Assembly (NCBI GenBank): GCA_947627935.1 | Contig: CANQXY010000005.1 | Coordinates: forward strand, 179 to 64,178 | Source of the DNA: an uncultured Clostridia bacterium | GTDB taxonomy: Bacteria > Bacillota > Clostridia > TANB77 > CAG-508 | DNA length: 64,000 nucleotides | Direction of reading: 5' to 3' | Shown here: positions 22,642-62,488 of the stretch, in pieces | How positions within the stretch are numbered: the first letter of the stretch is position 1 | Layout of the letters: each line of letters opens with the position of its first letter | Program-made: the position numbers and the translations under genes | Notes under the pieces: model-generated | What the model saw: only the letters and a program-made list of their open reading frames with translations | Database searches by the model: none | What the model was told of the DNA's origin: nothing

Positions 22642-25600
22642 CTATATTTTAAGCTTTATGAATTTTCTATTTATTAAATATGCTCCTGTTCCAATTACAA
22701 GTATTGTTAATAATGTAATTAGAGCTACATTTACTACAATTTCACCTGTTGCTATACCTATTATGATGTCTGCGTTATTCATATCGCTTTCTCCTTGTAC
22801 TTTATTTCCTGCTTTTGAATTTTCACTTTCTATTCCAGATGGACTATAGCTTTCTGCTATTTCTGCTAAGTTGTTTACTATCTCTGAGTCTTCTGATGTT
22901 ACTACTTTTGTTAATACTAATTTAACTGTCTTTGATTCACCTGGTAATATTTTTTCATTTGCTAAACTTACATTATATAAGTTGTTATCTAATTGATGCC
23001 AATCTTTATTTAGTTCTGAACTAAATTTAAGTCCTGATGGTATGTAATCAACTATACTTCTTACATATCCTTCTGCATCTCCGATGTTTGTTACTTTAAT
23101 TTCATATTCAATTACCATATTTGTATTTTTCATATATTTTGATGGTAATTCTATTTTTGTTGTTGATGTATTAGTAAAATCATATGTTTTTGTTTCTTTA
23201 CTATTTTGTACTATTACTTTGCTTATTTGTTTATCTAATTTTAATTCAAATGTTTTTATATCTTTTAGTCCTATGTTTATTCCTGCTATACTGCTATCTT
23301 TTATTGTTACTTTATCTGTATTTGCTATTGTTTTTTCTTGTCCATCTAATTCTAATTTATTTATTACTACGTCAGAGTTAATAGCTTCATCTACTCCTTC
23401 TGCTTTATATGTTGTTGGCATATATTTTGTATTGTCATATTCAAATACTACTATATAATTTCCTTTTGGTACATTATCTAATGAGTAGAATCCTTCTTCA
23501 TCTGTTGTTGTCTTTATGTCATTTCCATCTGCATCTTTTATAATTTTGTTTTTATCTATGTCTAATAATCTTACTGCTATATTACTTAATAATTCTTCAT
23601 CAGAATCTTTTGTTCCATCCTCATCTGCATCATACCATGCTGTTCCTGATATTGAATAAGTTCCTTCTTTATTTGTGTTTCCACTATTTTCTCCTGGATT
23701 TTCTCCTGGATTTTCTCCATTTCCATTACCATTTTCGTCTTCTGGTAATGCTTCTAAATAGTTTACTATCTCGTTAGATTGAATCGTTGAACTATTATAT
23801 TTTGCACTTGCTATGTTTGATATTTTTTGAGTTTTTGATGTTTGTGCGCCTTCTCTTACTTTTGTTGCAATTTTAAATTCTGTTTCTTCTCCTGGTTTTA
23901 AGTCAATACCTGACTGTAGTACATAATTACCAATTATTTCATTTTCATTAGATTCTTCTATTAATTTACCATCTCTTTCTATAGACTCTATTGTTAAAGT
24001 ATCTGGTACTTCATCTGAAAAATCTATGCCTAAGATATCCATTTCACTATTATTTTTAAATTTAACTGTATAATCAATCTTATCTCCTTCTTTTACATAT
24101 TTATTTGTTGTATTTGAAGATTGATTTACGGATAATGTTGCTGTGTTTATATTATATACAACTTCATTTGCTCTATATTCTTTATCTTCTGTTATAACTT
24201 TAGCATTTATTTTTGATTTAATATTATTTAAGTTATTTGTCATTAAGTCAACACATATAATTATTACATCATCTGCCTCTAAATTATCTATAGTAACTGT
24301 TTTTTCTTCTAAGGAAATTTTACTTTCATCTACATCATCAGATTCAATACTATTTATTTTTAAGTTTTCATCATTAAATAATTTAAATTTTACATTTTTT
24401 ATGTCTTTACCACTATAATTTATTATATCAAATTCTAGTAAGTCTCTATCATATCCTGCAATTAAATTTGTGTTTTCTTCTATATCAATTGCACTTACTG
24501 TAATATTTCCTAAATCTGTTTTTAAATTTAATTCATTAGAATCTGTAGTAACATCATTATTATATTGTACTGTTAATTTATTTGTTATATTTGTATCTTT
24601 TTGTGTTTCTTCTTCTACAGTTACTTGATATTCTTGTTCTATAGATTTTCCTGGTTGTAATAAATCAATTTTTATATCTTCTAGTGATTCTAAGAAATCT
24701 TTATGTATATGTATACCATCATTTTCTTCACAACCGTCACAAAGTCTATATTTTGAACAATATGTATTATCTGGTATATTTTGATGTAATATTACATTTG
24801 TTGCATCTTCTGTTCCTACATTTTCTATTTTTACTTTGTATTTGATTGTTTCTCCACCTGCAACTGTATCTCCATCTTTTACTTCTTCTCCACCTACTGT
24901 TGCTGTTAATGTTGCTTTTAATTCTGGTCCTACTCCTGTTGATACTCCTAATGCTGTTGCTTGTGTTTCTTCTTTTTGTCCATTTAGATTATTTGTATAC
25001 ACTACTTTGTAGTTTTCATATGCTTTTTCGTTGTATCCTAATTTTTCTGGTATTTGTACTCCATATGTTGCTGTTAAGTTTTCTCCTGCTTTCATTTGAT
25101 TTACTGTTATTAAATAACTTTTTACTTCTTCGTTATTTGTTATTTCTTGTGACCATCCATTTTCTGGTGTTAATTCTTCTGTTGCATCTTGTTTTTGGCT
25201 ATAATATATTTTTACTTTGCTTGGATCTATTCCTTGTGCTGTTATTCCTTTTGTTATTGTTGTTTTAATTGTATTTTCACTATTTTTTGTTGGGAAGCTT
25301 CCTAATATTTTTACATCTTTTACTTCTGCTTCGTTATTATTTATTACTTCTATTTTTACTTCTTCTTGTTTTGCTTCTTTTCCTGTTTCAATTATTTTTG
25401 TTTTTTCTTCTTCTTGTCCTATTGTTTCTATATTTAATTGTTCCATTGTATTTGCTACTACCATTCCTGTTGGTGCAACTATTTCTATTTCTTTTTCTAA
25501 TTGTTCTATTGGGCTTGTTGCTTTTTCGTTTGTGTATTCTATTTTTATTTTTTCTGTACTATTTGCTATCTTTTTATTTAATGTCATATTTGCATTTATT

Positions 25601-27501
25601 ATTATTGTTGCCCCTTGAGCTATTTGGCTATCTATGTATTTTGTTTGTTCTCCTTGTAAATTTATTTCTATAACTTTTGCTCCATTATCATCATAAAGTC
25701 TAGCATTTCCTACTTTTAATTCTTCGTCATATAATAAGTTTATTGAATTTACTTTAACATTTTCTACTTGACTTGGTAATTTTACTTTTATTGTAGGATT
25801 TTTATATAAATCATATTTTTCATTGTCTGTTACTAATGTTGCTTTTATTTCTAAACCTTTATTTTCTACTACTGTTGATAAACTTTTCTTGTTTATTTCC
25901 ATTTTTGCTTTTGTTGTTGTTTCTTTTAAAGCAATTTTGTTTGTATCTGTTATTGTTATTCCATCATGTGTTAATACTGTTTCTTGTTTTATTTCTTTCA
26001 TTTCTTTTAATGTTTCTGTTTCGTATTCTTCTGCTTTTATTACTTTTGTATTTTCTATTTTTATTATTCCTGTTGCTACTGGAGCACTTGTTTTTATTGT
26101 TAATTCTTTTACTCCATCTTCATAGTTTACTTCTATTTGTCCTTGTTCATTTTCTATTGTTTTACTTGTTATTTTTGCTATTTGTCTTCCATCTTGGTCT
26201 GCTATTTCTATTGTTCCTTCTTCTCCTAATACATTTAAGATATCTTCTTTACTTATTTTTGTTTGTTTATATTGTGTATTTGCTATTAATTCTCTTTCTC
26301 CATCTACATATGTTGCTTGTTTTTGACTTACTTCTATTCCTTCTTTTGCTTCTGGATAGTTTACATTTATGTCTAATTTTGTTTTATATTCTCTTTCTTG
26401 TTTTGCATATATCTTTCCTTTATATATGCTTTTCTCTTCGTTTTTTGTTTTTATTTCTATTGTTCCGTCTTTTTCTTCTCCAACTTTTATTGTATTTTCT
26501 ACTGTTTTTGTTGTTACTTTACTATTATATAATGTTATTTCTGCTTTTGTATTTATTTCATTTTCTGTTACTTCTACTTCTTCTGGTAATATGTATGTTA
26601 CTACTACTGTATCTTTTGCATTCTTATTCCATGTTATTTTTCCATTTTGTTCTTGGTTTTCAATTTTTATTTGTAATTTATTTTCTTCTTTTATATATTC
26701 CCAGTTATCTTCTGTAAAAGTATTTTCATCTTTTCCATTTGTTGCCTCTGTTCCTAAAGATGTAACTTTTACATCTTCTACTTCTTCTGGTACATTTAAT
26801 TCTATATTAGTTGATTTTACTGGGTATTTATTTTCTTCTAGAGAACTATTTATTTTTATTTGTACTACTCTCTTATTTGTACCTTCTATGTTATATACTT
26901 TATTTGTTAGTATTTGTGCATCTAAAATAGCTCCATTATTTTCTTCATATGGATCTTCTAATATTAGTTTTACTTGTTTTGTTGCTTCTATATCTATTTT
27001 ATCTGCTTTACTATTTGTATATATTCCACTTAATTTTATTTGGCTTTCCATGTTTAATAGACTTAAATCTATTACGTTTCCTTGCTTTGCTGCTATTCCT
27101 AATTCTACTTCCATTGTTTCTCCAGCACGTATTTGATTTAAGCTTATTTGGTTTCCTTCTATTTTATTTATTCCTTCACTTAGCTGGTCTGCTTTAACTT
27201 CAAAGTTACTATCTAATATTTCTACCTTTCCGTTAAAGTACCCTTCATCTTGTACGGATATTTCCATGTATAATTTCATGTTTTCTTCGGCTATACTTTC
27301 TTCCTTTATATCTACCCTTTCGCCGTTTTCTGTTTTGAAGTATGCACTAAATTTAACATTTTTGTTGTTTGTTTCACTACTTTGATTTAATGTTCCTATT
27401 GCATAACTTACAAAACTTGCTCCTAAAAATAGGAAATTAGCCATTGTTAGTGTTATTACTAAACTAATCGCTACTATTGCCTTTAAAACTTTTCTTTCCA
27501 T
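22642..27501 (-). CDS. Giant cell-surface protein with DUF11-like repeats and an SdrD-B-like domain; C-terminal TM anchor
   Basis: 1619 aa with an N-terminal signal/TM (KAIVAISLVITLTMANFLFLGASFVSYA). A DUF11-like block is present (GGETIKYKVKIENVGTEDATNVIL, also EGDKIDYTVKFKNNS). The Ca-type SdrD-B motif is AWYDADEDGTKDSDE...TDEEGFYSLDNVPKGNYIVVFEYD. There is a GENPGENPGENSGN linker and a C-terminal hydrophobic segment plus RKFIKLKI. A 19-nt gap to the next gene implies an operon. Confidence 0.8.
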   Translation of the reverse strand: MERKVLKAIVAISLVITLTMANFLFLGASFVSYAIGTLNQSSETNNKNVKFSAYFKTENGERVDIKEESIAEENMKLYMEISVQDEGYFNGKVEILDSNFEVKADQLSEGINKIEGNQISLNQIRAGETMEVELGIAAKQGNVIDLSLLNMESQIKLSGIYTNSKADKIDIEATKQVKLILEDPYEENNGAILDAQILTNKVYNIEGTNKRVVQIKINSSLEENKYPVKSTNIELNVPEEVEDVKVTSLGTEATNGKDENTFTEDNWEYIKEENKLQIKIENQEQNGKITWNKNAKDTVVVTYILPEEVEVTENEINTKAEITLYNSKVTTKTVENTIKVGEEKDGTIEIKTKNEEKSIYKGKIYAKQEREYKTKLDINVNYPEAKEGIEVSQKQATYVDGERELIANTQYKQTKISKEDILNVLGEEGTIEIADQDGRQIAKITSKTIENEQGQIEVNYEDGVKELTIKTSAPVATGIIKIENTKVIKAEEYETETLKEMKEIKQETVLTHDGITITDTNKIALKETTTKAKMEINKKSLSTVVENKGLEIKATLVTDNEKYDLYKNPTIKVKLPSQVENVKVNSINLLYDEELKVGNARLYDDNGAKVIEINLQGEQTKYIDSQIAQGATIIINANMTLNKKIANSTEKIKIEYTNEKATSPIEQLEKEIEIVAPTGMVVANTMEQLNIETIGQEEEKTKIIETGKEAKQEEVKIEVINNNEAEVKDVKILGSFPTKNSENTIKTTITKGITAQGIDPSKVKIYYSQKQDATEELTPENGWSQEITNNEEVKSYLITVNQMKAGENLTATYGVQIPEKLGYNEKAYENYKVVYTNNLNGQKEETQATALGVSTGVGPELKATLTATVGGEEVKDGDTVAGGETIKYKVKIENVGTEDATNVILHQNIPDNTYCSKYRLCDGCEENDGIHIHKDFLESLEDIKIDLLQPGKSIEQEYQVTVEEETQKDTNITNKLTVQYNNDVTTDSNELNLKTDLGNITVSAIDIEENTNLIAGYDRDLLEFDIINYSGKDIKNVKFKLFNDENLKINSIESDDVDESKISLEEKTVTIDNLEADDVIIICVDLMTNNLNNIKSKINAKVITEDKEYRANEVVYNINTATLSVNQSSNTTNKYVKEGDKIDYTVKFKNNSEMDILGIDFSDEVPDTLTIESIERDGKLIEESNENEIIGNYVLQSGIDLKPGEETEFKIATKVREGAQTSKTQKISNIASAKYNSSTIQSNEIVNYLEALPEDENGNGNGENPGENPGENSGNTNKEGTYSISGTAWYDADEDGTKDSDEELLSNIAVRLLDIDKNKIIKDADGNDIKTTTDEEGFYSLDNVPKGNYIVVFEYDNTKYMPTTYKAEGVDEAINSDVVINKLELDGQEKTIANTDKVTIKDSSIAGINIGLKDIKTFELKLDKQISKVIVQNSKETKTYDFTNTSTTKIELPSKYMKNTNMVIEYEIKVTNIGDAEGYVRSIVDYIPSGLKFSSELNKDWHQLDNNLYNVSLANEKILPGESKTVKLVLTKVVTSEDSEIVNNLAEIAESYSPSGIESENSKAGNKVQGESDMNNADIIIGIATGEIVVNVALITLLTILVIGTGAYLINRKFIKLKI

Positions 27502-28112: not shown

Positions 28113-28592
28113 ATGTCTGATGATATGTCTGATGTTTTTAATAATATAAAAAATATGATGGATAATGGCAATTTACCAGATAATATTCAAGAAATTGTTA
28201 ATAATATTAAAAATTCTAATACTTCTAATAATACAGAAAATAATAATTCAAATTCTACCTCTAATAACATTAATATTGATTCAAATAAAATATCTCCTGA
28301 AATGATAAATACTTTATCTAGTTTATTAAATTCTACCTCTAATGAAAAAACTGCAAACAATGATACAAATTCAGAATCTACAATAGACGTAAATACAATT
28401 TTAAAAATGAAAACAATAATAGACTCTATGAATCAAAAGAATGATCCAAGAGCAAATTTACTTTATTCTTTAAAACCTTATTTAAGAGAAAATAAAAAAA
28501 ATAAATTAGATCAATATGTAAATTTACTAAAAATGACTAAAATTGCAGATATTATGAAAAATGAAAAAAAGGAGAATAGTTCTAATGCCTAG
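28113..28592 (+). CDS. Hypothetical Asn/Ser-rich protein (159 aa)
   Basis: SD AAGGGAAGTGA upstream. A low-complexity N/S/T-rich centre is followed by a conserved-looking C-terminus DPRANLLYSLKPYLRENKKNKLDQYVNLLKM. The stop overlaps the next start (ATGCCTAG). Confidence 0.6.
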   Translation: MSDDMSDVFNNIKNMMDNGNLPDNIQEIVNNIKNSNTSNNTENNNSNSTSNNINIDSNKISPEMINTLSSLLNSTSNEKTANNDTNSESTIDVNTILKMKTIIDSMNQKNDPRANLLYSLKPYLRENKKNKLDQYVNLLKMTKIADIMKNEKKENSSNA

Positions 28593-28893
28593 TTACCCTT
28601 TTTTTGGATTTCCCTTTCCTCCTCATAGGCGTTACAATTATAATAATCATAACAACTATAATAAAAATAATGAATTACATAGTAATAATACATTAGAAAA
28701 AGATAAGTATCTAGATAAAGGTACTAATGAGTCTAATAATACATATAGTAATGAACCATATTTATTTGATTTATTTGGAATAAAATTATATTTTGATGAC
28801 ATTTTAATAATATGTTTAATATTCTTTTTATATAATGAAGGTGTTAAAGACGAAGGATTATTTTTTGCTTTGATATTACTACTTCTAACCTAG
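28585..28893 (+). CDS. Hypothetical membrane protein (102 aa)
   Basis: ATG at 28585 with SD AAGGAGAA 10 nt upstream, overlapping the upstream stop. It has a Pro/Phe-rich N-terminus and a C-terminal hydrophobic segment DILIICLIFFLYNEGVKDEGLFFALILLLL. The ORF-track start at 28561 is less likely. Confidence 0.55.
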   Translation: MPSYPFFGFPFPPHRRYNYNNHNNYNKNNELHSNNTLEKDKYLDKGTNESNNTYSNEPYLFDLFGIKLYFDDILIICLIFFLYNEGVKDEGLFFALILLLLT

Positions 28894-28896
28894 AAA

Positions 28897-28930
28897 GGCC
28901 ACAAATATTTTATTGTGGTCTTTTTTTTTA
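28897..28930 (+). terminator. Intrinsic terminator of the small-ORF operon
   Basis: GGCCACAA-atatttta-TTGTGGTC followed by T9. Confidence 0.75.
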
Positions 28931-28957
28931 TTTCAAATATTCTATAATTTTACATTA

Positions 28958-29989
28958 TTAACTTTCTTTTTCAATTATATCAATATGTAAATTTAAATCT
29001 TCTTCTGTTGGTAATATACTCAAAATATCTTTTGGTAATACCTTTGAAATCTCATAAGAACTGACTCCTATTGGTTTGTTAATATCTCTTAATGAATATT
29101 CAACTGAAAATTTTGTTTTTTCTCTGCATAATATTATTCCAATTGTTGGATTATCAGTTTCTGTTTTTAGCAAATCATCAACTGCTGATAAATAAAAATT
29201 CAATTTTCCAGCATATTCTGGTTTGTATTCTGTATTCTTTAATTCTACTACTATATAGCAATGCAATTTAGTATGATAAAATAACATATCTATAAAATAT
29301 TCCTTATCATCTACTAAAATTTTATATTGATTTCCAATAAAACTAAAACCATTTCCTAGCTCCAATAAAACTGTTTTTATTTTTTCAACCATTGCTTTTT
29401 CTAATTCTGTTTCTATAAAACTTTCTTTTAAATTTGATAAATTTAAAATATATGGATCTTTCATCATATCTTTTGCTAATTTACTTTGTGTTGCTTGTAA
29501 TGTATTTTTAAAATTATTAGGTTTATCTCCTAAAACTTGGCGTGTATATAAATCACTTTTAATTTGAAATGCTAAATCATCATAACTCCATCCATTTATT
29601 GCAGTTTGTTCTATATACCACTCTCTTTGCTTTTCGTTTTTTATTTTACTAAAAATTAATATATTGTGTGACCAAGGTATCTTTTCAGAAAGTTTTTTAA
29701 GATTATTATTATTTTTACACTCTAAATAATATTTTTTCATATTAAGAAGATTTCTTTCTGAAAAGCCTTTCATATTAGGAAAATTAACTTTTAACTCTAC
29801 TGATAAATTGTTTATAAAGCTATTTCCATATTTAGAATTTTCATCTATTACTTGTCCTAAGTAACAATATAATGCTAACATTCTTATATTTGCACTTTTA
29901 TAAATATCATATTGTGCATTTAATATTTCATTTTTTATATCTTTAAATACTTCTTTAAAATCTTTTTCCAACATTCTATTTTCCTTCAT
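28958..29989 (-). CDS. YhcG-like PDDEXK nuclease domain protein (DUF1016)
   Basis: 343 aa. The N-terminal helical region ends ...FPNMKGFSERNLLNMKKYY. The C-terminal nuclease core is YFIDMLFYHTKLHCYIVVELKNTEYKPEYAGKLNFYL, as in the DUF1016/YhcG family. Confidence 0.8.
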   Translation of the reverse strand: MKENRMLEKDFKEVFKDIKNEILNAQYDIYKSANIRMLALYCYLGQVIDENSKYGNSFINNLSVELKVNFPNMKGFSERNLLNMKKYYLECKNNNNLKKLSEKIPWSHNILIFSKIKNEKQREWYIEQTAINGWSYDDLAFQIKSDLYTRQVLGDKPNNFKNTLQATQSKLAKDMMKDPYILNLSNLKESFIETELEKAMVEKIKTVLLELGNGFSFIGNQYKILVDDKEYFIDMLFYHTKLHCYIVVELKNTEYKPEYAGKLNFYLSAVDDLLKTETDNPTIGIILCREKTKFSVEYSLRDINKPIGVSSYEISKVLPKDILSILPTEEDLNLHIDIIEKES

Positions 29990-30043
29990 ATGCTACCTCT
30001 TTTCTTAAATTATTTAAATTAAAATGCTTATATCTCAATAATT

Positions 30044-30081
30044 TTTTTGAAATTCGCAGACGCATCTGCGAATTTCAAAAA
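30044..30081. repeat. Perfect 17-bp inverted repeat (hairpin) in the DUF1016 leader
   Basis: TTTTTGAAATTCGCAGA-cgca-TCTGCGAATTTCAAAAA. Confidence 0.85.
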
Positions 30082-30140
30082 TATTTATTTTATAAAAAAT
30101 ACTTAAATATTAAAATTTTAACATATAATTCTCCTTAAAT

Positions 30141-30290
30141 TTATAAAAAGAGAGCTAAAATATATATTTTAGCCCCCTATATTAAACTTCGCTTATTTTT
30201 ATTGAGCCGCGAAACGCTCGAATATATCGTTCGCTGTTGTGTCTGAGTCGCGAAACACTCGAATTAATGAATAGCTATTCTTTTATTAGT
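30141..30290 (-). ncRNA. Candidate structured RNA (sRNA or cis-leader) with tandem GC-rich hairpin units and its own promoter and terminator
   Basis: The promoter is TTGACA (30324-30319), 16 nt, TATAAT (30302-30297). No ATG lies between the predicted TSS (~30290) and the terminator. That terminator is a GCTAAAAT/ATTTTAGC stem (30173-30154) followed by CTCTTTTTAT. It contains tandem ~41-nt units with GAGC/GCTC versus GAGT/ACTC stems. The ends are approximate. Confidence 0.45.
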
Positions 30291-30296
30291 ATATTC

Positions 30297-30324
30297 ATTA
30301 TACTATTTTTATTAATTATGTCAA
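30297..30324 (-). promoter_or_regulatory. Consensus SigA promoter immediately downstream of minC
   Basis: On the minus strand: TTGACA, 16 nt, TATAAT. Confidence 0.6.
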
Positions 30325-30377
30325 TATAAATTATTAATTCTATAATCTTTTTTAAATTATTTATTAATTTTTCTAGT

Positions 30378-30989
30378 TTATTCTATTACAATTTCATCTT
30401 TATCTACATATATATATGCTTGTTTATGTAATGGTTCTTCTTCTCTATCTATTTCTTTTACTATATTTGAAATTCTAAGTTGTACAGTATCTAATATTCC
30501 TGCAGATATAATTGCTTGTTTATTTCCTTTAGCCCCTGCATGTGCTAATCCTCTAAGTGTACCTAAAACTACTATATTGTCTCTTGCCATTACTTCAGCA
30601 CCTGAATTAACATCTCCTAAAATAACTATACTTCCTTCTACTTCCATTTTTTGTCCTGATCTTAATGAACCTCTATGAAATTTAGTTTCTGAAACAGCTA
30701 TTTCTTGTTCAAATGTTTTTTTAATATTAGATAATCCAAATCCTTTTGGCATATCAAATTCTATATCAACATCTATTTTTTGTTTTATTAATTCTTGTAA
30801 TTCATCTATCTCTTTATTCTTTAAAACCTTTCCAGTTACTTTTATAGGTGTTGTTGCTCCCTTATATAATTTCTTTAAATCTGGTAGCTTTTTATTAAAA
30901 CTCCACACAATATTACTAAAATCTGCATCTTCATTTATTTTAATTACTATATAATCTTTTTTTAAATTTATTGTTATACAACTTCTCAT
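30378..30989 (-). CDS. minC: Septum site-determining protein MinC
   Basis: 203 aa. The C-terminal beta-helix motif is ILGDVNSGAEVMARDNIVVLGTLRGLAHAGAKGN. It is the last gene of the mreBCD-pbp2 cluster. Confidence 0.9.
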   Translation of the reverse strand: MRSCITINLKKDYIVIKINEDADFSNIVWSFNKKLPDLKKLYKGATTPIKVTGKVLKNKEIDELQELIKQKIDVDIEFDMPKGFGLSNIKKTFEQEIAVSETKFHRGSLRSGQKMEVEGSIVILGDVNSGAEVMARDNIVVLGTLRGLAHAGAKGNKQAIISAGILDTVQLRISNIVKEIDREEEPLHKQAYIYVDKDEIVIE

Positions 30990-62345: not shown

Positions 62346-62488
62346 GAAAAATGGCGTGAATTACAATCTCTCTATGGAAAGCAATTTCCACGCAAACTTT
62401 ACTGCTTATTGCTGCTTCCTTCCGGACCTGACAAGGTTCACAGGAGCTTGCTGGTTTGCTCTCCATACAGAAATTGTATTCATACCAT
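62346..62488 (-). ncRNA. ffs: Signal recognition particle RNA (apparently short, 4.5S-like form)
   Basis: The minus strand contains the universal domain IV sequence GUCAGGUCCGGAAGGAAGCAGC (complement of 62411-62432). The 5' GGUAUGAAUACAAUUUCUGUAUGG pairs with the 3' CCAUAGAGAGAUUGUAAUUCACGCC to form a long closing helix followed by AUUUUU. The position upstream of dnaX is canonical. Ends are accurate to about 10 nt. Confidence 0.88.

What the first reader, a model, noticed from the sequence alone, without database searches (positions are those of the whole stretch)
30141..30324. Promoter-to-terminator unit (~150 nt) after minC with tandem GC-rich hairpins, one compensatory base-pair change and pseudoknot potential: candidate novel sRNA or tandem-aptamer leader
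Seen in the sequence, on the minus strand about 50 nt after the minC stop:
- A promoter: TTGACA (30324-30319), 16 nt, TATAAT (30302-30297).
- About 150 nt with no ATG and no SD.
- A terminator: GCTAAAAT/ATTTTAGC hairpin (30173-30154) followed by CTCTTTTTAT.

The body is a tandem ~41-nt duplication (plus-strand 30186-30226 and 30228-30268). Its pattern is TTCGCT-N8/9-TGAG[C/T]CGCGAAAC[G/A]CTCGAAT. These are the only GC-rich islands in this AT-rich spacer.
- Copy 1 folds GAGC(30204-07)/GCTC(30216-19).
- Copy 2 folds GAGT(30245-48)/ACTC(30257-60).
- The C>T change in one arm is matched by G>A in the other, so pairing is preserved.
- In the RNA sense, each loop GUUUCGCG contains UUCGC. This is complementary to the GCGAA located 8-9 nt 3' of each hairpin, so each unit could form an H-type pseudoknot.

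Inference: this is either a stand-alone sRNA or a cis-acting tandem element. The cis reading would be promoter, structured units, terminator, SD plus 4-codon ORF, 17-bp hairpin, then the DUF1016 nuclease gene. I do not recognise it as a family I know; for example, the loops are not the ACGR loops of mini-ykkC.
Basis: partly seen in the sequence, partly recalled or inferred. Interest (0 to 1): 0.72.

Follow-up and report, generated by a model that had tools for sequence, protein, structure and literature searches.

The report
Orphan ToxI antitoxin RNA repeats
The small structured RNA unit after minC is the antitoxin half of a known phage-defence toxin-antitoxin module (ToxIN/AbiQ, type III) whose toxin gene has been cut down to four codons, so it belongs to a known class and is not a new riboswitch or sRNA.

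Summary
The element is not a new RNA class. At least 12 distinct loci from gut Clostridia genomes and metagenomes carry the same promoter, leader, repeat units, terminator and Shine-Dalgarno sequence. In the intact ones, a 162-166 aa ToxN/AbiQ endoribonuclease gene follows (Pfam PF13958, E about 1e-34).

That layout defines a type III toxin-antitoxin locus, and the repeats are its ToxI-like antitoxin RNA. Across 28 distinct units, 99.6% of pair cells form standard pairs and all five pseudoknot pairs covary.

In the window, toxN survives only as ATG TTA AAA TTT TAA. Homology to toxIN loci stops at 30111. A YhcG/DUF1016 nuclease cassette (PADLOC candidate PDC-S02) starts about 8 nt later; elsewhere this cassette occurs without any ToxI array. 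A sister taxon (MinC 92% identical) lacks the whole 1,458-bp toxI-yhcG segment.

Verdict: this is an orphaned antitoxin array in a variable defence islet, a new member of a known kind. Whether it still acts, in trans or as a promoter-attenuator for yhcG, is open.

The parts
30297..30324 (-). toxI promoter: -35 TTGACA (30324-30319), 16-nt spacer, -10 TATAAT (30302-30297)
   Evidence: 12/12 consensus match. The same promoter and the sequence after it (TAGTATAATGAATATACTAA) are conserved in toxIN loci L108, L118, L146, L147, L153 and L159.
30264..30290 (-). Conserved leader (AUACUAAUAAAAGAAUAGCUAUUCAUUAA) with a small GAAU-AGCU-AUUC hairpin. The start near 30290 is inferred from the position of the -10 box.
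   Evidence: Conserved in all homologous arrays. The hairpin is predicted in the minimum-free-energy fold. The transcription start was not mapped.
30223..30263 (-). ToxI-like repeat unit 1 (41 nt): S1 GAGU 30260-57 / ACUC 30248-45; 8-nt loop 30256-49; linker 30244-35; S2 partner GCGAA 30234-30; tail CGAUAUA
   Evidence: S1 is 4/4 paired and S2 is 5/5 paired. The linker AGACACAACA lacks the A-run seen in most homologous units.
30182..30222 (-). ToxI-like repeat unit 2 (41 nt): S1 GAGC 30219-16 / GCUC 30207-04; loop 30215-08; A-rich linker 30203-193; S2 partner GCGAA 30192-88
   Evidence: It is closest to unit 2 of L159 (GAGC GUUUCGCG GCUU).
30141..30178 (-). Rho-independent terminator (13-pair stem 30178-30149, then a U-run). 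In intact relatives it separates the toxI repeats from toxN.
   Evidence: The equivalent GGGGG..AAAAU hairpin lies at the same place in all homologous loci.
30110..30136 (-). toxN stump: SD AAGGAG (30136-31), then ATG TTA AAA TTT TAA (30124-30110), reading MLKF-stop
   Evidence: L118 toxN starts ATG TTA AAG TTT TAT (MLKFYEVD...) behind the same SD. Homology of five toxIN loci to the window ends at 30111. tblastn finds no other toxN in the window.
30103..30110 (.). Recombination junction between the toxIN remnant and the YhcG cassette
   Evidence: toxIN homology ends at 30111. YhcG-cassette homology starts at 30102 (L163), 30095 (L011) and 30089 (L012). The junction is identical in three independent metagenome contigs, L002-L004.
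30044..30081 (.). 17-bp-arm palindrome (core TTCGCAGAYGCRTCTGCGAA) belonging to the YhcG cassette, not to the RNA array
   Evidence: Present upstream of yhcG homologues in L011, L012, L162 (two copies) and L163, all of which lack ToxI repeats.
28958..29989 (-). yhcG / DUF1016 PD-(D/E)XK nuclease gene (343 aa), which occupies the place of toxN
   Evidence: Pfam DUF1016_N and YhcG_C. PADLOC candidate defence family PDC-S02, E 1e-123.
28893..30350 (.). Lineage-specific 1,458-bp insertion (toxI remnant plus yhcG cassette) between minC and the convergent downstream genes
   Evidence: Sister-taxon contigs L170-L173 (MinC 92% identical) align to the window up to 30351 and resume at 28892. Only about 20 nt lies between these points in those contigs.

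Best explanation
The unit is the antitoxin (toxI-like) half of a ToxIN/AbiQ-family type III toxin-antitoxin / abortive-infection module.

In intact relatives the mechanism, taken from the characterised ToxIN systems, is as follows. One strong promoter transcribes a short leader and three ~41-nt repeats. A terminator lets only a fraction of transcripts continue into toxN. The ToxN endoribonuclease cuts the repeat precursor into single units. Each unit folds as a hairpin-type pseudoknot (4-bp S1, 8-nt loop whose positions 3-7 pair with a 5-nt strand 8-12 nt downstream) and binds ToxN in an inactive cyclic complex.

In this window the toxin gene was deleted after codon 4 and a YhcG/DUF1016 nuclease cassette was joined there. 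What remains is an orphan antitoxin RNA gene with two repeats, an intact promoter and an intact terminator. It is most likely a recent leftover of defence-gene turnover in a variable spot after minC.

Shown here: homology of the cassette, the toxin identity in relatives, pseudoknot covariation, and the deletion and insertion boundaries. Inferred: transcription, processing, neutralising ability, and the cleavage site. The cleavage site is probably in the conserved inter-unit AUAUAUUC, by analogy with AA/AUUC of Pectobacterium ToxI.
For: 1. Loci L105, L108, L118, L144-L147, L149, L153, L159 and L161 share promoter, leader, repeat units, terminator and SD with the window. A ToxN gene follows in each.
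2. The downstream proteins match Pfam PF13958 ToxN_toxin (E 2e-34 and 9e-35) and PADLOC AbiQ (E 1e-31 and 3e-33). They also match solved ToxN/AbiQ structures 7d8o, 2xd0, 4ato and 4glk.
3. On 28 distinct units, 99.6% of cells are paired, 7 of 9 pairs change on both sides, and all 5 S2 pairs covary. None of 500 shuffles reaches the observed covariation score, and slid controls pair at 20-46%.
4. Of 33 units, 32 have a 5/5 S2 pairing, against a mean of 0.98 after shuffling the downstream sequence. S2 strand pairs include UUCGC/GCGAA, UUCAC/GUGAA, AGGCU/AGCCU, ACGCU/AGCGU, AUGCU/AGCAU and AGGUU/AACCU.
5. Ten G-U cells fix the structure to the promoter strand.
6. The layout fits the published ToxI template and toxIN ranges: repeats of 31-62 nt in 1.9-5.6 copies, and Group II with loop 1b-2b longer than 7 nt (PMC3401426). 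It mirrors canonical ToxI: AUUC-AGGU-GAUUUGCU-ACCU against AUUC-GAGU-GUUUCGCG-ACUC.
7. toxN homology ends at 30111 and YhcG-cassette homology begins at 30102-30089.
8. L077 and L129 show a second, independent decay in which toxN lacks about 47 N-terminal codons but the array is kept.
Against: - No toxin gene is present in cis or anywhere in the 64-kb window, so one defining component of a type III locus is missing here.
- The array has 2 repeats, whereas most intact relatives have 3.
- Unit 1 has lost the A-run in its linker.
- Nothing shows the RNA is made, processed or active.
- No Rfam model supports the assignment. However, Rfam 15 also gives no hit on the canonical ToxI of pECA1039, so this absence is uninformative.
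- Alignment A3 was built after choosing the best S2 partner position and trimming the linker, so it leans towards the structure. Searches give the untrimmed check.
Confidence: 0.9

Rival explanations
1. Functional stand-alone antitoxin. The orphan ToxI array is kept because it neutralises a ToxN encoded elsewhere in the genome, or an incoming toxIN-bearing plasmid or phage (anti-addiction or immunity role). This shares the ancestry claim with the best explanation but differs on present function.
For: - The promoter is still 12/12 consensus and the terminator is intact.
- Both units keep S1 4/4 and S2 5/5.
- Two repeats lie within the range that works for antiQ, which needs at least 1.8 (PMC5086642).
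- L105 has an intact toxN with a single repeat.
- Related toxIN loci occur in metagenome assemblies with accession numbers close to those of the window's contigs (ERZ272492xx-ERZ272496xx).
- Phage pseudo-ToxI shows that free ToxI-like RNA can be useful (PMC5086642).
Against: - No toxN is found in the 64-kb window.
- A sister taxon with 92%-identical MinC lacks the array altogether, so there is no sign of long-term retention.
- The four contigs carrying it are identical, or nearly so, from the promoter onward and give no selection signal.
- Loss of the toxin with survival of the antitoxin is the neutral expectation for toxin-antitoxin decay.
Confidence: 0.2
2. Co-opted expression cassette. After the replacement, the toxI promoter, repeats and terminator drive and meter transcription of the YhcG/PDC-S02 nuclease by partial read-through, as they once did for toxN.
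For: - yhcG sits exactly where toxN was.
- Cassette homology to L011, L012 and L162 begins only about 8-20 nt upstream of the palindrome. That is downstream of the GCTATAATG promoter those loci carry, so the usual yhcG promoter appears to be missing here.
- Type III loci are known to express the downstream gene by terminator read-through (PMC3401426).
Against: - yhcG homologues at 84-93% protein identity work in five other contexts without any ToxI array.
- A weaker promoter-like site lies between the palindrome and yhcG (30038-30009, 10/12).
- The junction region is AT-rich and its alignment is ambiguous.
- No expression data exist.
Confidence: 0.2
3. Novel tandem riboswitch or aptamer, or a new trans-acting regulatory sRNA unrelated to toxin-antitoxin systems.
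For: - Structured GC-rich units lie between a promoter and a terminator.
- No Rfam hit was found.
Against: - In every homologous locus with an intact downstream gene, that gene is toxN, never a transporter or metabolic gene.
- The loop nucleotides are not conserved. They are replaced wholesale together with their pairing partner in second and third repeats. This fits a scaffold helix, not a ligand pocket.
- Rfam's silence also applies to bona fide ToxI.
Confidence: 0.02
4. DNA-level feature (iterons, operator repeats or a REP-like element), or a chance repeat.
For: The feature consists of direct repeats in an intergenic region.
Against: - Only two copies occur in 64 kb, against 0 expected by chance.
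- The pattern's other hits in genome contigs and viral contigs are unpaired chance matches in GC-rich DNA.
- Covariation with G-U pairs is strand-specific, which points to RNA.
Confidence: 0.01

Closest known systems
ToxI/ToxN (toxIN family) type III toxin-antitoxin / abortive infection systems, e.g. Pectobacterium atrosepticum pECA1039 ToxIN, Bacillus thuringiensis ToxIN, E. coli ToxIN (PDB 7d8o)
   Same: - Promoter, tandem ~36-41-nt repeats, Rho-independent terminator, then SD and toxN, as seen in the intact relatives.
- Each unit is a hairpin-type pseudoknot with a 4-bp S1, an 8-nt loop, a 1-nt loop 2a-1b and a longer loop 1b-2b.
- An AUUC tail precedes S1, as in canonical ToxI.
- The relatives' toxins match PF13958 and the solved ToxN structures.
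   Different: - The window has no toxin, only 4 codons.
- It has 2 repeats, whereas most intact relatives have 3.
- The repeat sequence is unrelated beyond the layout.
- The arrays of this subfamily are heterogeneous: second and third repeats often carry a different but fully compensated S2 helix.
- The toxins align to ToxN of P. atrosepticum only at E about 1e-14.
AbiQ/antiQ of Lactococcus lactis pSRQ900
   Same: - It is a Firmicutes toxIN-family member, and PADLOC's AbiQ model hits the relatives' toxins.
- antiQ has 2.8 repeats of 35 nt, and at least 1.8 repeats are needed for antitoxin activity (PMC5086642).
   Different: - The repeat sequence differs.
- The match to solved AbiQ is weaker (E 3e-10).
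- The elements here are chromosomal, in gut Clostridia.
Phage pseudo-ToxI (PhiTE escape mutants)
   Same: It is a ToxI-type repeat RNA that exists without a cognate toxin gene in cis (PMC5086642; PMC3475682, listed).
   Different: It is phage-encoded and selected to disarm host ToxN. Here the orphan is chromosomal and arose by deletion of its own toxin gene. No homologue of the array was found in IMG/VR.
Truncated-toxin type III loci noted by Blower et al. 2012 (e.g. cptIN loci with 45-66 aa toxins)
   Same: Full antitoxic repeats and a terminator are retained while the toxin gene is shortened (PMC3401426). L077 and L129 are of this kind.
   Different: In the window the truncation is extreme (4 codons), and another defence-candidate gene has been spliced in.

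Membership tests
Type III toxin-antitoxin locus, toxIN family (criteria of Blower et al. 2012, PMC3401426) | Tandem array of nucleotide repeats upstream of the toxin (family range 31-62 nt, 1.9-5.6 copies) | tested here: met
   Two 41-nt units at 30263-30182. Ten distinct complete arrays in relatives, including the toxN-truncated L077, have 3 units; L105 has 1.
Type III toxin-antitoxin locus, toxIN family (criteria of Blower et al. 2012, PMC3401426) | Short palindromic Rho-independent terminator between the repeats and the toxin gene | tested here: met
   13-pair stem 30178-30149 plus a U-run. It is conserved in position in all relatives.
Type III toxin-antitoxin locus, toxIN family (criteria of Blower et al. 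2012, PMC3401426) | -35/-10 promoter placed just before the repeats | tested here: met
   TTGACA-16-TATAAT, 12/12.
Type III toxin-antitoxin locus, toxIN family (criteria of Blower et al. 2012, PMC3401426) | ToxN/AbiQ-fold endoribonuclease gene immediately downstream | tested here: not met
   The window keeps only SD plus MLKF-stop (30136-30110), and tblastn finds no toxN in 64 kb. The criterion is met in homologous loci (PF13958, E about 1e-34). The window element is therefore filed as an orphaned antitoxin component, not as a complete type III system.
ToxI-type antitoxin RNA (structural template of Blower et al. 2011/2012) | Hairpin-type pseudoknot: two nested 3-5-bp stems, short loop 2a-1b (1-2 nt), longer variable loop 1b-2b | tested here: met
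   S1 is 4 bp, loop 1a-2a is 2 nt, S2 is 5 bp, loop 2a-1b is 1 nt and loop 1b-2b is 5-12 nt (Group II). 99.6% of cells are paired and 7 of 9 pairs covary. The template is described.
ToxI-type antitoxin RNA (structural template of Blower et al. 2011/2012) | Processed by, and neutralises, its cognate toxin | not testable with these tools
   This needs co-expression and Northern blots. The cleavage site is only inferred by analogy: the conserved AUAUAUUC between units against AA/AUUC in ToxI of P. atrosepticum.
cptIN / tenpIN type III families | CptN- or TenpN-type toxin with 40-57-nt repeats | tested here: not met
   The relatives' toxins hit only ToxN_toxin in Pfam and only AbiQ in PADLOC.
Riboswitch / tandem aptamer (e.g. 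guanidine-II mini-ykkC, preQ1-type pseudoknots) | Invariant ligand-contacting loop nucleotides, and a recurrent link to transport or metabolic genes | tested here: not met
   Loop positions 3-7 change completely together with their partner strand. The downstream gene is always toxN. No Rfam family matches at E up to 10.
REP-like / dispersed repeat element | Many dispersed copies per genome | tested here: not met
   There are 2 copies in 64 kb even with 3 mismatches allowed. Elsewhere the unit is found only at toxIN loci.
Any Rfam 15 family | Covariance-model match | tested here: inconclusive
   No relevant hit was found for the window or for intact relatives. The canonical pECA1039 ToxI also gets no hit, so Rfam has no usable ToxI model.

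The most novel reading that the evidence does not exclude
The toxI promoter-repeat-terminator cassette was not simply left behind but is retained for use. One possibility is a trans-acting 'immunity' RNA against ToxN toxins arriving on mobile elements or encoded elsewhere in the genome. Another is a read-through attenuator that now meters the PD-(D/E)XK defence candidate YhcG (PDC-S02). The second would be a natural hybrid in which a type III antitoxin module has been rewired to a different effector.
Probability: 0.1. Interest if true: 0.6.

Novelty: new member of a known kind. Interest (0 to 1): 0.27.

Why it matters
It turns an apparent 'novel structured RNA' into a recognisable, annotatable feature: a ToxI-type antitoxin array.

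- Type III antitoxin arrays are not found by Rfam (no hit even on the canonical ToxI), and Tandem Repeats Finder misses this two-copy array. Orphans like this one will therefore keep appearing as false novel sRNAs.
- The gut-Clostridia subfamily collected here gives an unusually clean natural covariation set for the ToxI pseudoknot, with six or more different S2 helices on one scaffold.
- The locus is a dated snapshot of defence-gene turnover. The sister taxon has an empty site, this lineage gained toxIN, and then the toxin was replaced by a PDC-S02 nuclease while the antitoxin survived.

Tried and rejected
- Rfam at gathering and at E up to 10 on the window and on intact relatives: only noise such as miRNA and CRISPR-DR hits. 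The control on pECA1039 ToxI showed this silence is uninformative.
- blastn of the spacer against plasmids: one irrelevant AT-rich hit.
- IMG/VR: two DNA patterns and one toxin-protein scan gave only chance matches with unpaired stems.
115 of the rows were GC-rich chance matches, and only L077, L105, L108, L118 and L129 were real. A more AT-anchored pattern would have been better.
- The protein-based metagenome scan used low-complexity peptides and returned only 3 loci.
- Tandem Repeats Finder does not see the array.
- The nested minimum-free-energy fold cannot represent the pseudoknot. It pairs S2-like strands instead, and its z-score of -2.5 was not used as evidence.
- Supplementary tables of Blower 2012 are not held, so I could not check whether this exact repeat consensus was already listed.
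- Type III system with YhcG as the toxin: rejected, because YhcG homologues lack the array elsewhere.
- A base-pairing link between ToxI loops and the GCGAA in the yhcG palindrome: rejected as a 5-nt coincidence.
- Fine alignment of the junction against L162 and L163 is ambiguous in AT-rich sequence, so only the roughly 8-nt junction zone is claimed.

Full report
**Observation**

- A perfect sigma-70 promoter: TTGACA 30324-30319, 16 nt, TATAAT 30302-30297. It is the only 12/12 site in the region.
- Two tandem 41-nt units at 30263-30223 and 30222-30182, with a start-to-start spacing of 41 nt.
- A 13-pair terminator at 30178-30149 with a U-run.
- The shared 20-mer TTCGAGYGTTTCGCGRCTCA occurs exactly twice in 64 kb even with three mismatches allowed, against 0 expected.
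- Each unit has a 4-bp stem (GAGU/ACUC and GAGC/GCUC, a compensatory difference), an 8-nt loop GUUUCGCG, and GCGAA 10-11 nt downstream that is complementary to loop UUCGC.

**What the surroundings are**

Upstream lie mreD, a class B penicillin-binding protein and minC. Downstream lies a 343-aa DUF1016_N + YhcG_C PD-(D/E)XK nuclease. PADLOC classes this nuclease as the candidate defence family PDC-S02 (E 1e-123).

YhcG homologues at 84-93% protein identity were fetched from five other genomic contexts: after argS, after a Y-family polymerase gene, before ldh, and others. All of them carry the 17-bp-arm palindrome (core TTCGCAGAYGCRTCTGCGAA) in front of yhcG, and none carries the tandem units. 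The palindrome therefore belongs to the YhcG cassette, and the repeats do not.

**What the repeats are**

A degenerate single-unit pattern was scanned across 185,579 species genomes. Most hits were unpaired chance matches in GC-rich DNA, but five were real, all in uncultured Clostridium or Clostridia MAGs. Protein-anchored retrieval added more loci.

The distinct loci L105, L108, L118, L144, L145, L146, L147, L149, L153, L159 and L161 share several elements with the window:
- the promoter;
- the sequence TAGTATAATGAATATACTAA and the leader GAAUAGCUAUUC;
- the repeat units;
- the GGGGG...AAAAU terminator;
- an AGGAG Shine-Dalgarno sequence.

In each of these loci the next gene encodes a 162-166-aa protein. 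The two tested (L118, L108) match Pfam PF13958 ToxN_toxin (E 2e-34 and 9e-35, full length) and the PADLOC AbiQ model, and L118's also matches the solved ToxN/AbiQ structures 7d8o, 2xd0, 4ato and 4glk; the toxins of the loci fetched through P0123, P0143, P0190 and P0200 carry precomputed PF13958 hits.

A promoter, tandem repeats, a terminator and a toxN gene are exactly the published criteria for a type III toxin-antitoxin locus (PMC3401426). The 41-nt unit and the 2-3 copies fall within the toxIN-family ranges of 31-62 nt and 1.9-5.6 copies. The repeats are thus a ToxI-type antitoxin RNA.

**Structure**

I parsed 33 units from 12 arrays.
- All have S1 4/4 paired.
- 32 of 33 have S2 5/5 paired at a linker distance of 5-12 nt. 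Shuffling the downstream sequence gives a mean of 0.98 such units, with a maximum of 6 in 2,000 trials.
- On an ungapped alignment of 28 distinct units (linker trimmed to 5 nt), the pseudoknot ...((((..[[[[[.)))).....]]]]]...... pairs in 99.6% of cells.
- 7 of 9 pairs change on both sides, and all five S2 pairs covary.
- None of 500 shuffles reaches the observed covariation score. Sliding the partner by 1-3 columns drops pairing to 20-46%.
- S2 appears as UUCGC/GCGAA, UUCAC/GUGAA, AGGCU/AGCCU, ACGCU/AGCGU, AUGCU/AGCAU, AGGUU/AACCU and GGGUU/AACCU.
- S1 appears as GAGU/ACUC, GAGC/GCUC, GAGG/CCUC and AAGC/GCUU, with G-U intermediates.
- Ten G-U cells tie the fold to the transcribed strand.

The layout matches the ToxI template, Group II: a 4-bp S1, a 2-nt loop 1a-2a, a 5-bp S2, a 1-nt loop 2a-1b and a long A-rich loop 1b-2b. 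It parallels canonical ToxI read from pECA1039: AUUC-AGGU-GAUUUGCU-ACCU-...GCAGC-UAGAA against AUUC-GAGU-GUUUCGCG-ACUC-...GCGAA-CGAUAU.

One caveat applies. The trimmed alignment was fitted to the structure. The untrimmed parse and the shuffle control address this.

**What happened in the window**

After the terminator the window reads AAGGAGAATTAT ATG TTA AAA TTT TAA. L118 toxN begins ATG TTA AAG TTT TAT GAA (MLKFYEVD).

Homology of five toxIN loci to the window stops at 30111. YhcG-cassette homology starts at 30102, 30095 and 30089 in three different comparisons. toxN was therefore removed after codon 4 and the YhcG cassette was joined within about 8 nt.

Three independent metagenome contigs are identical across the junction, so it is not an assembly artefact. 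tblastn finds no toxN anywhere in the window.

Contigs of a sister taxon (MinC 92% identical, DNA 82-84%) align up to 30351 and resume at 28892, with only a small hairpin between these points. The whole 1,458-bp toxI-yhcG segment is therefore a lineage-specific insertion in the spacer after minC.

A second, independent decay is seen in L077 and L129. There the array is intact but toxN lacks its first ~47 codons. Loss of the toxin with retention of the antitoxin is the direction of decay that a toxin-antitoxin module tolerates.

**Mechanism and open points**

For intact relatives I adopt the established ToxIN mechanism (PMC5086642):
- the repeat RNA is made in excess;
- the terminator limits expression of toxN;
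- ToxN cuts the precursor into units;
- the units assemble with ToxN into an inactive cyclic complex;
- phage infection releases the RNase.

For the window, only ancestry and architecture are shown. Transcription, processing and residual activity are inferred or unknown.

Two repeats would be enough by the antiQ precedent, which needs at least 1.8 repeats. L105 shows an intact toxN behind a single unit.

Because the usual yhcG promoter seen in L011, L012 and L162 lies outside the detectable homology, yhcG may now depend partly on read-through from the toxI promoter. However, a 10/12 promoter-like site at 30038-30009 offers an alternative.

The absence of the array from the sister taxon argues against long-term selection for the orphan.

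**Comparison and verdict**

It works like ToxI and is homologous to it. It fails the locus-level membership test for a complete type III system on one tested feature, the toxin gene. I therefore file it as an orphaned ToxI-type antitoxin array.
- Riboswitch, REP-like and DNA-repeat readings are rejected: the downstream gene is always toxN, the loops covary rather than being conserved, there are no dispersed copies, and the G-U pairs are strand-specific.
- Rfam gives no hit. It gives none on bona fide ToxI either, so that negative carries no weight.
- Novelty: a new member of a known kind.
- Interest is modest. It is a useful annotation lesson, a neat covariation set, and a clear example of defence-gene replacement, but not a new RNA class.

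Noticed in passing
window 30044-30081; also L011 ~2650, L012 ~3900, L162 (two copies, ~1210 and ~1250), L163 ~1740: A near-perfect palindrome with core TTCGCAGAYGCRTCTGCGAA sits between the promoter and the SD of yhcG/DUF1016 (PDC-S02) genes in five unrelated genomic contexts. It looks like a conserved operator or 5'-UTR hairpin of this candidate defence gene. Its function is unknown.
   Followed up: partly
window 28893-30350 versus L170-L173: The spacer after minC is a variable spot. A sister taxon has minC followed within 50 nt by the convergent small ORFs, whereas this lineage carries a 1,458-bp toxI-remnant plus yhcG islet.
   Followed up: yes
L077 4267-4400, L145, L147, L149, L153 (third repeats): In this ToxI subfamily the last repeat, and sometimes the second, carries a completely different S2 helix that is fully compensated. 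Arrays therefore encode non-identical pseudoknots. Whether the toxin binds all variants equally is unknown.
   Followed up: partly
L105 5879-5930: An apparently intact toxN (MKLKFYEVDGEY...) is preceded by only one repeat unit, which has an A-C mismatch in S1, and by a weakened -10 box. It may be a minimal or failing antitoxin.
   Followed up: no
L169 357-578 (pECA1039, NC_011767.1 1714-1935): RefSeq annotates a 'hypothetical protein' CDS across the canonical ToxI repeat array, and Rfam 15 returns no family for that array. Type III antitoxins are effectively invisible to standard annotation.
   Followed up: partly
window 28113-28893 (+) and 22642-27501 (-): Two small convergent ORFs (159 and 110 aa, no Pfam hit) and a 1,619-aa DUF11/SdrD_B-repeat surface protein follow the islet. 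They are conserved in the sister taxon.
   Followed up: partly
window 62374-62463 (-): Bacterial small SRP RNA (RF00169, 58.5 bits). This is an ordinary housekeeping RNA.
   Followed up: no
window 30378-30989 and downstream: minC is not followed by minD or minE in this window or in the sister-taxon contigs. The min operon appears split or reduced in this Clostridia lineage.
   Followed up: no
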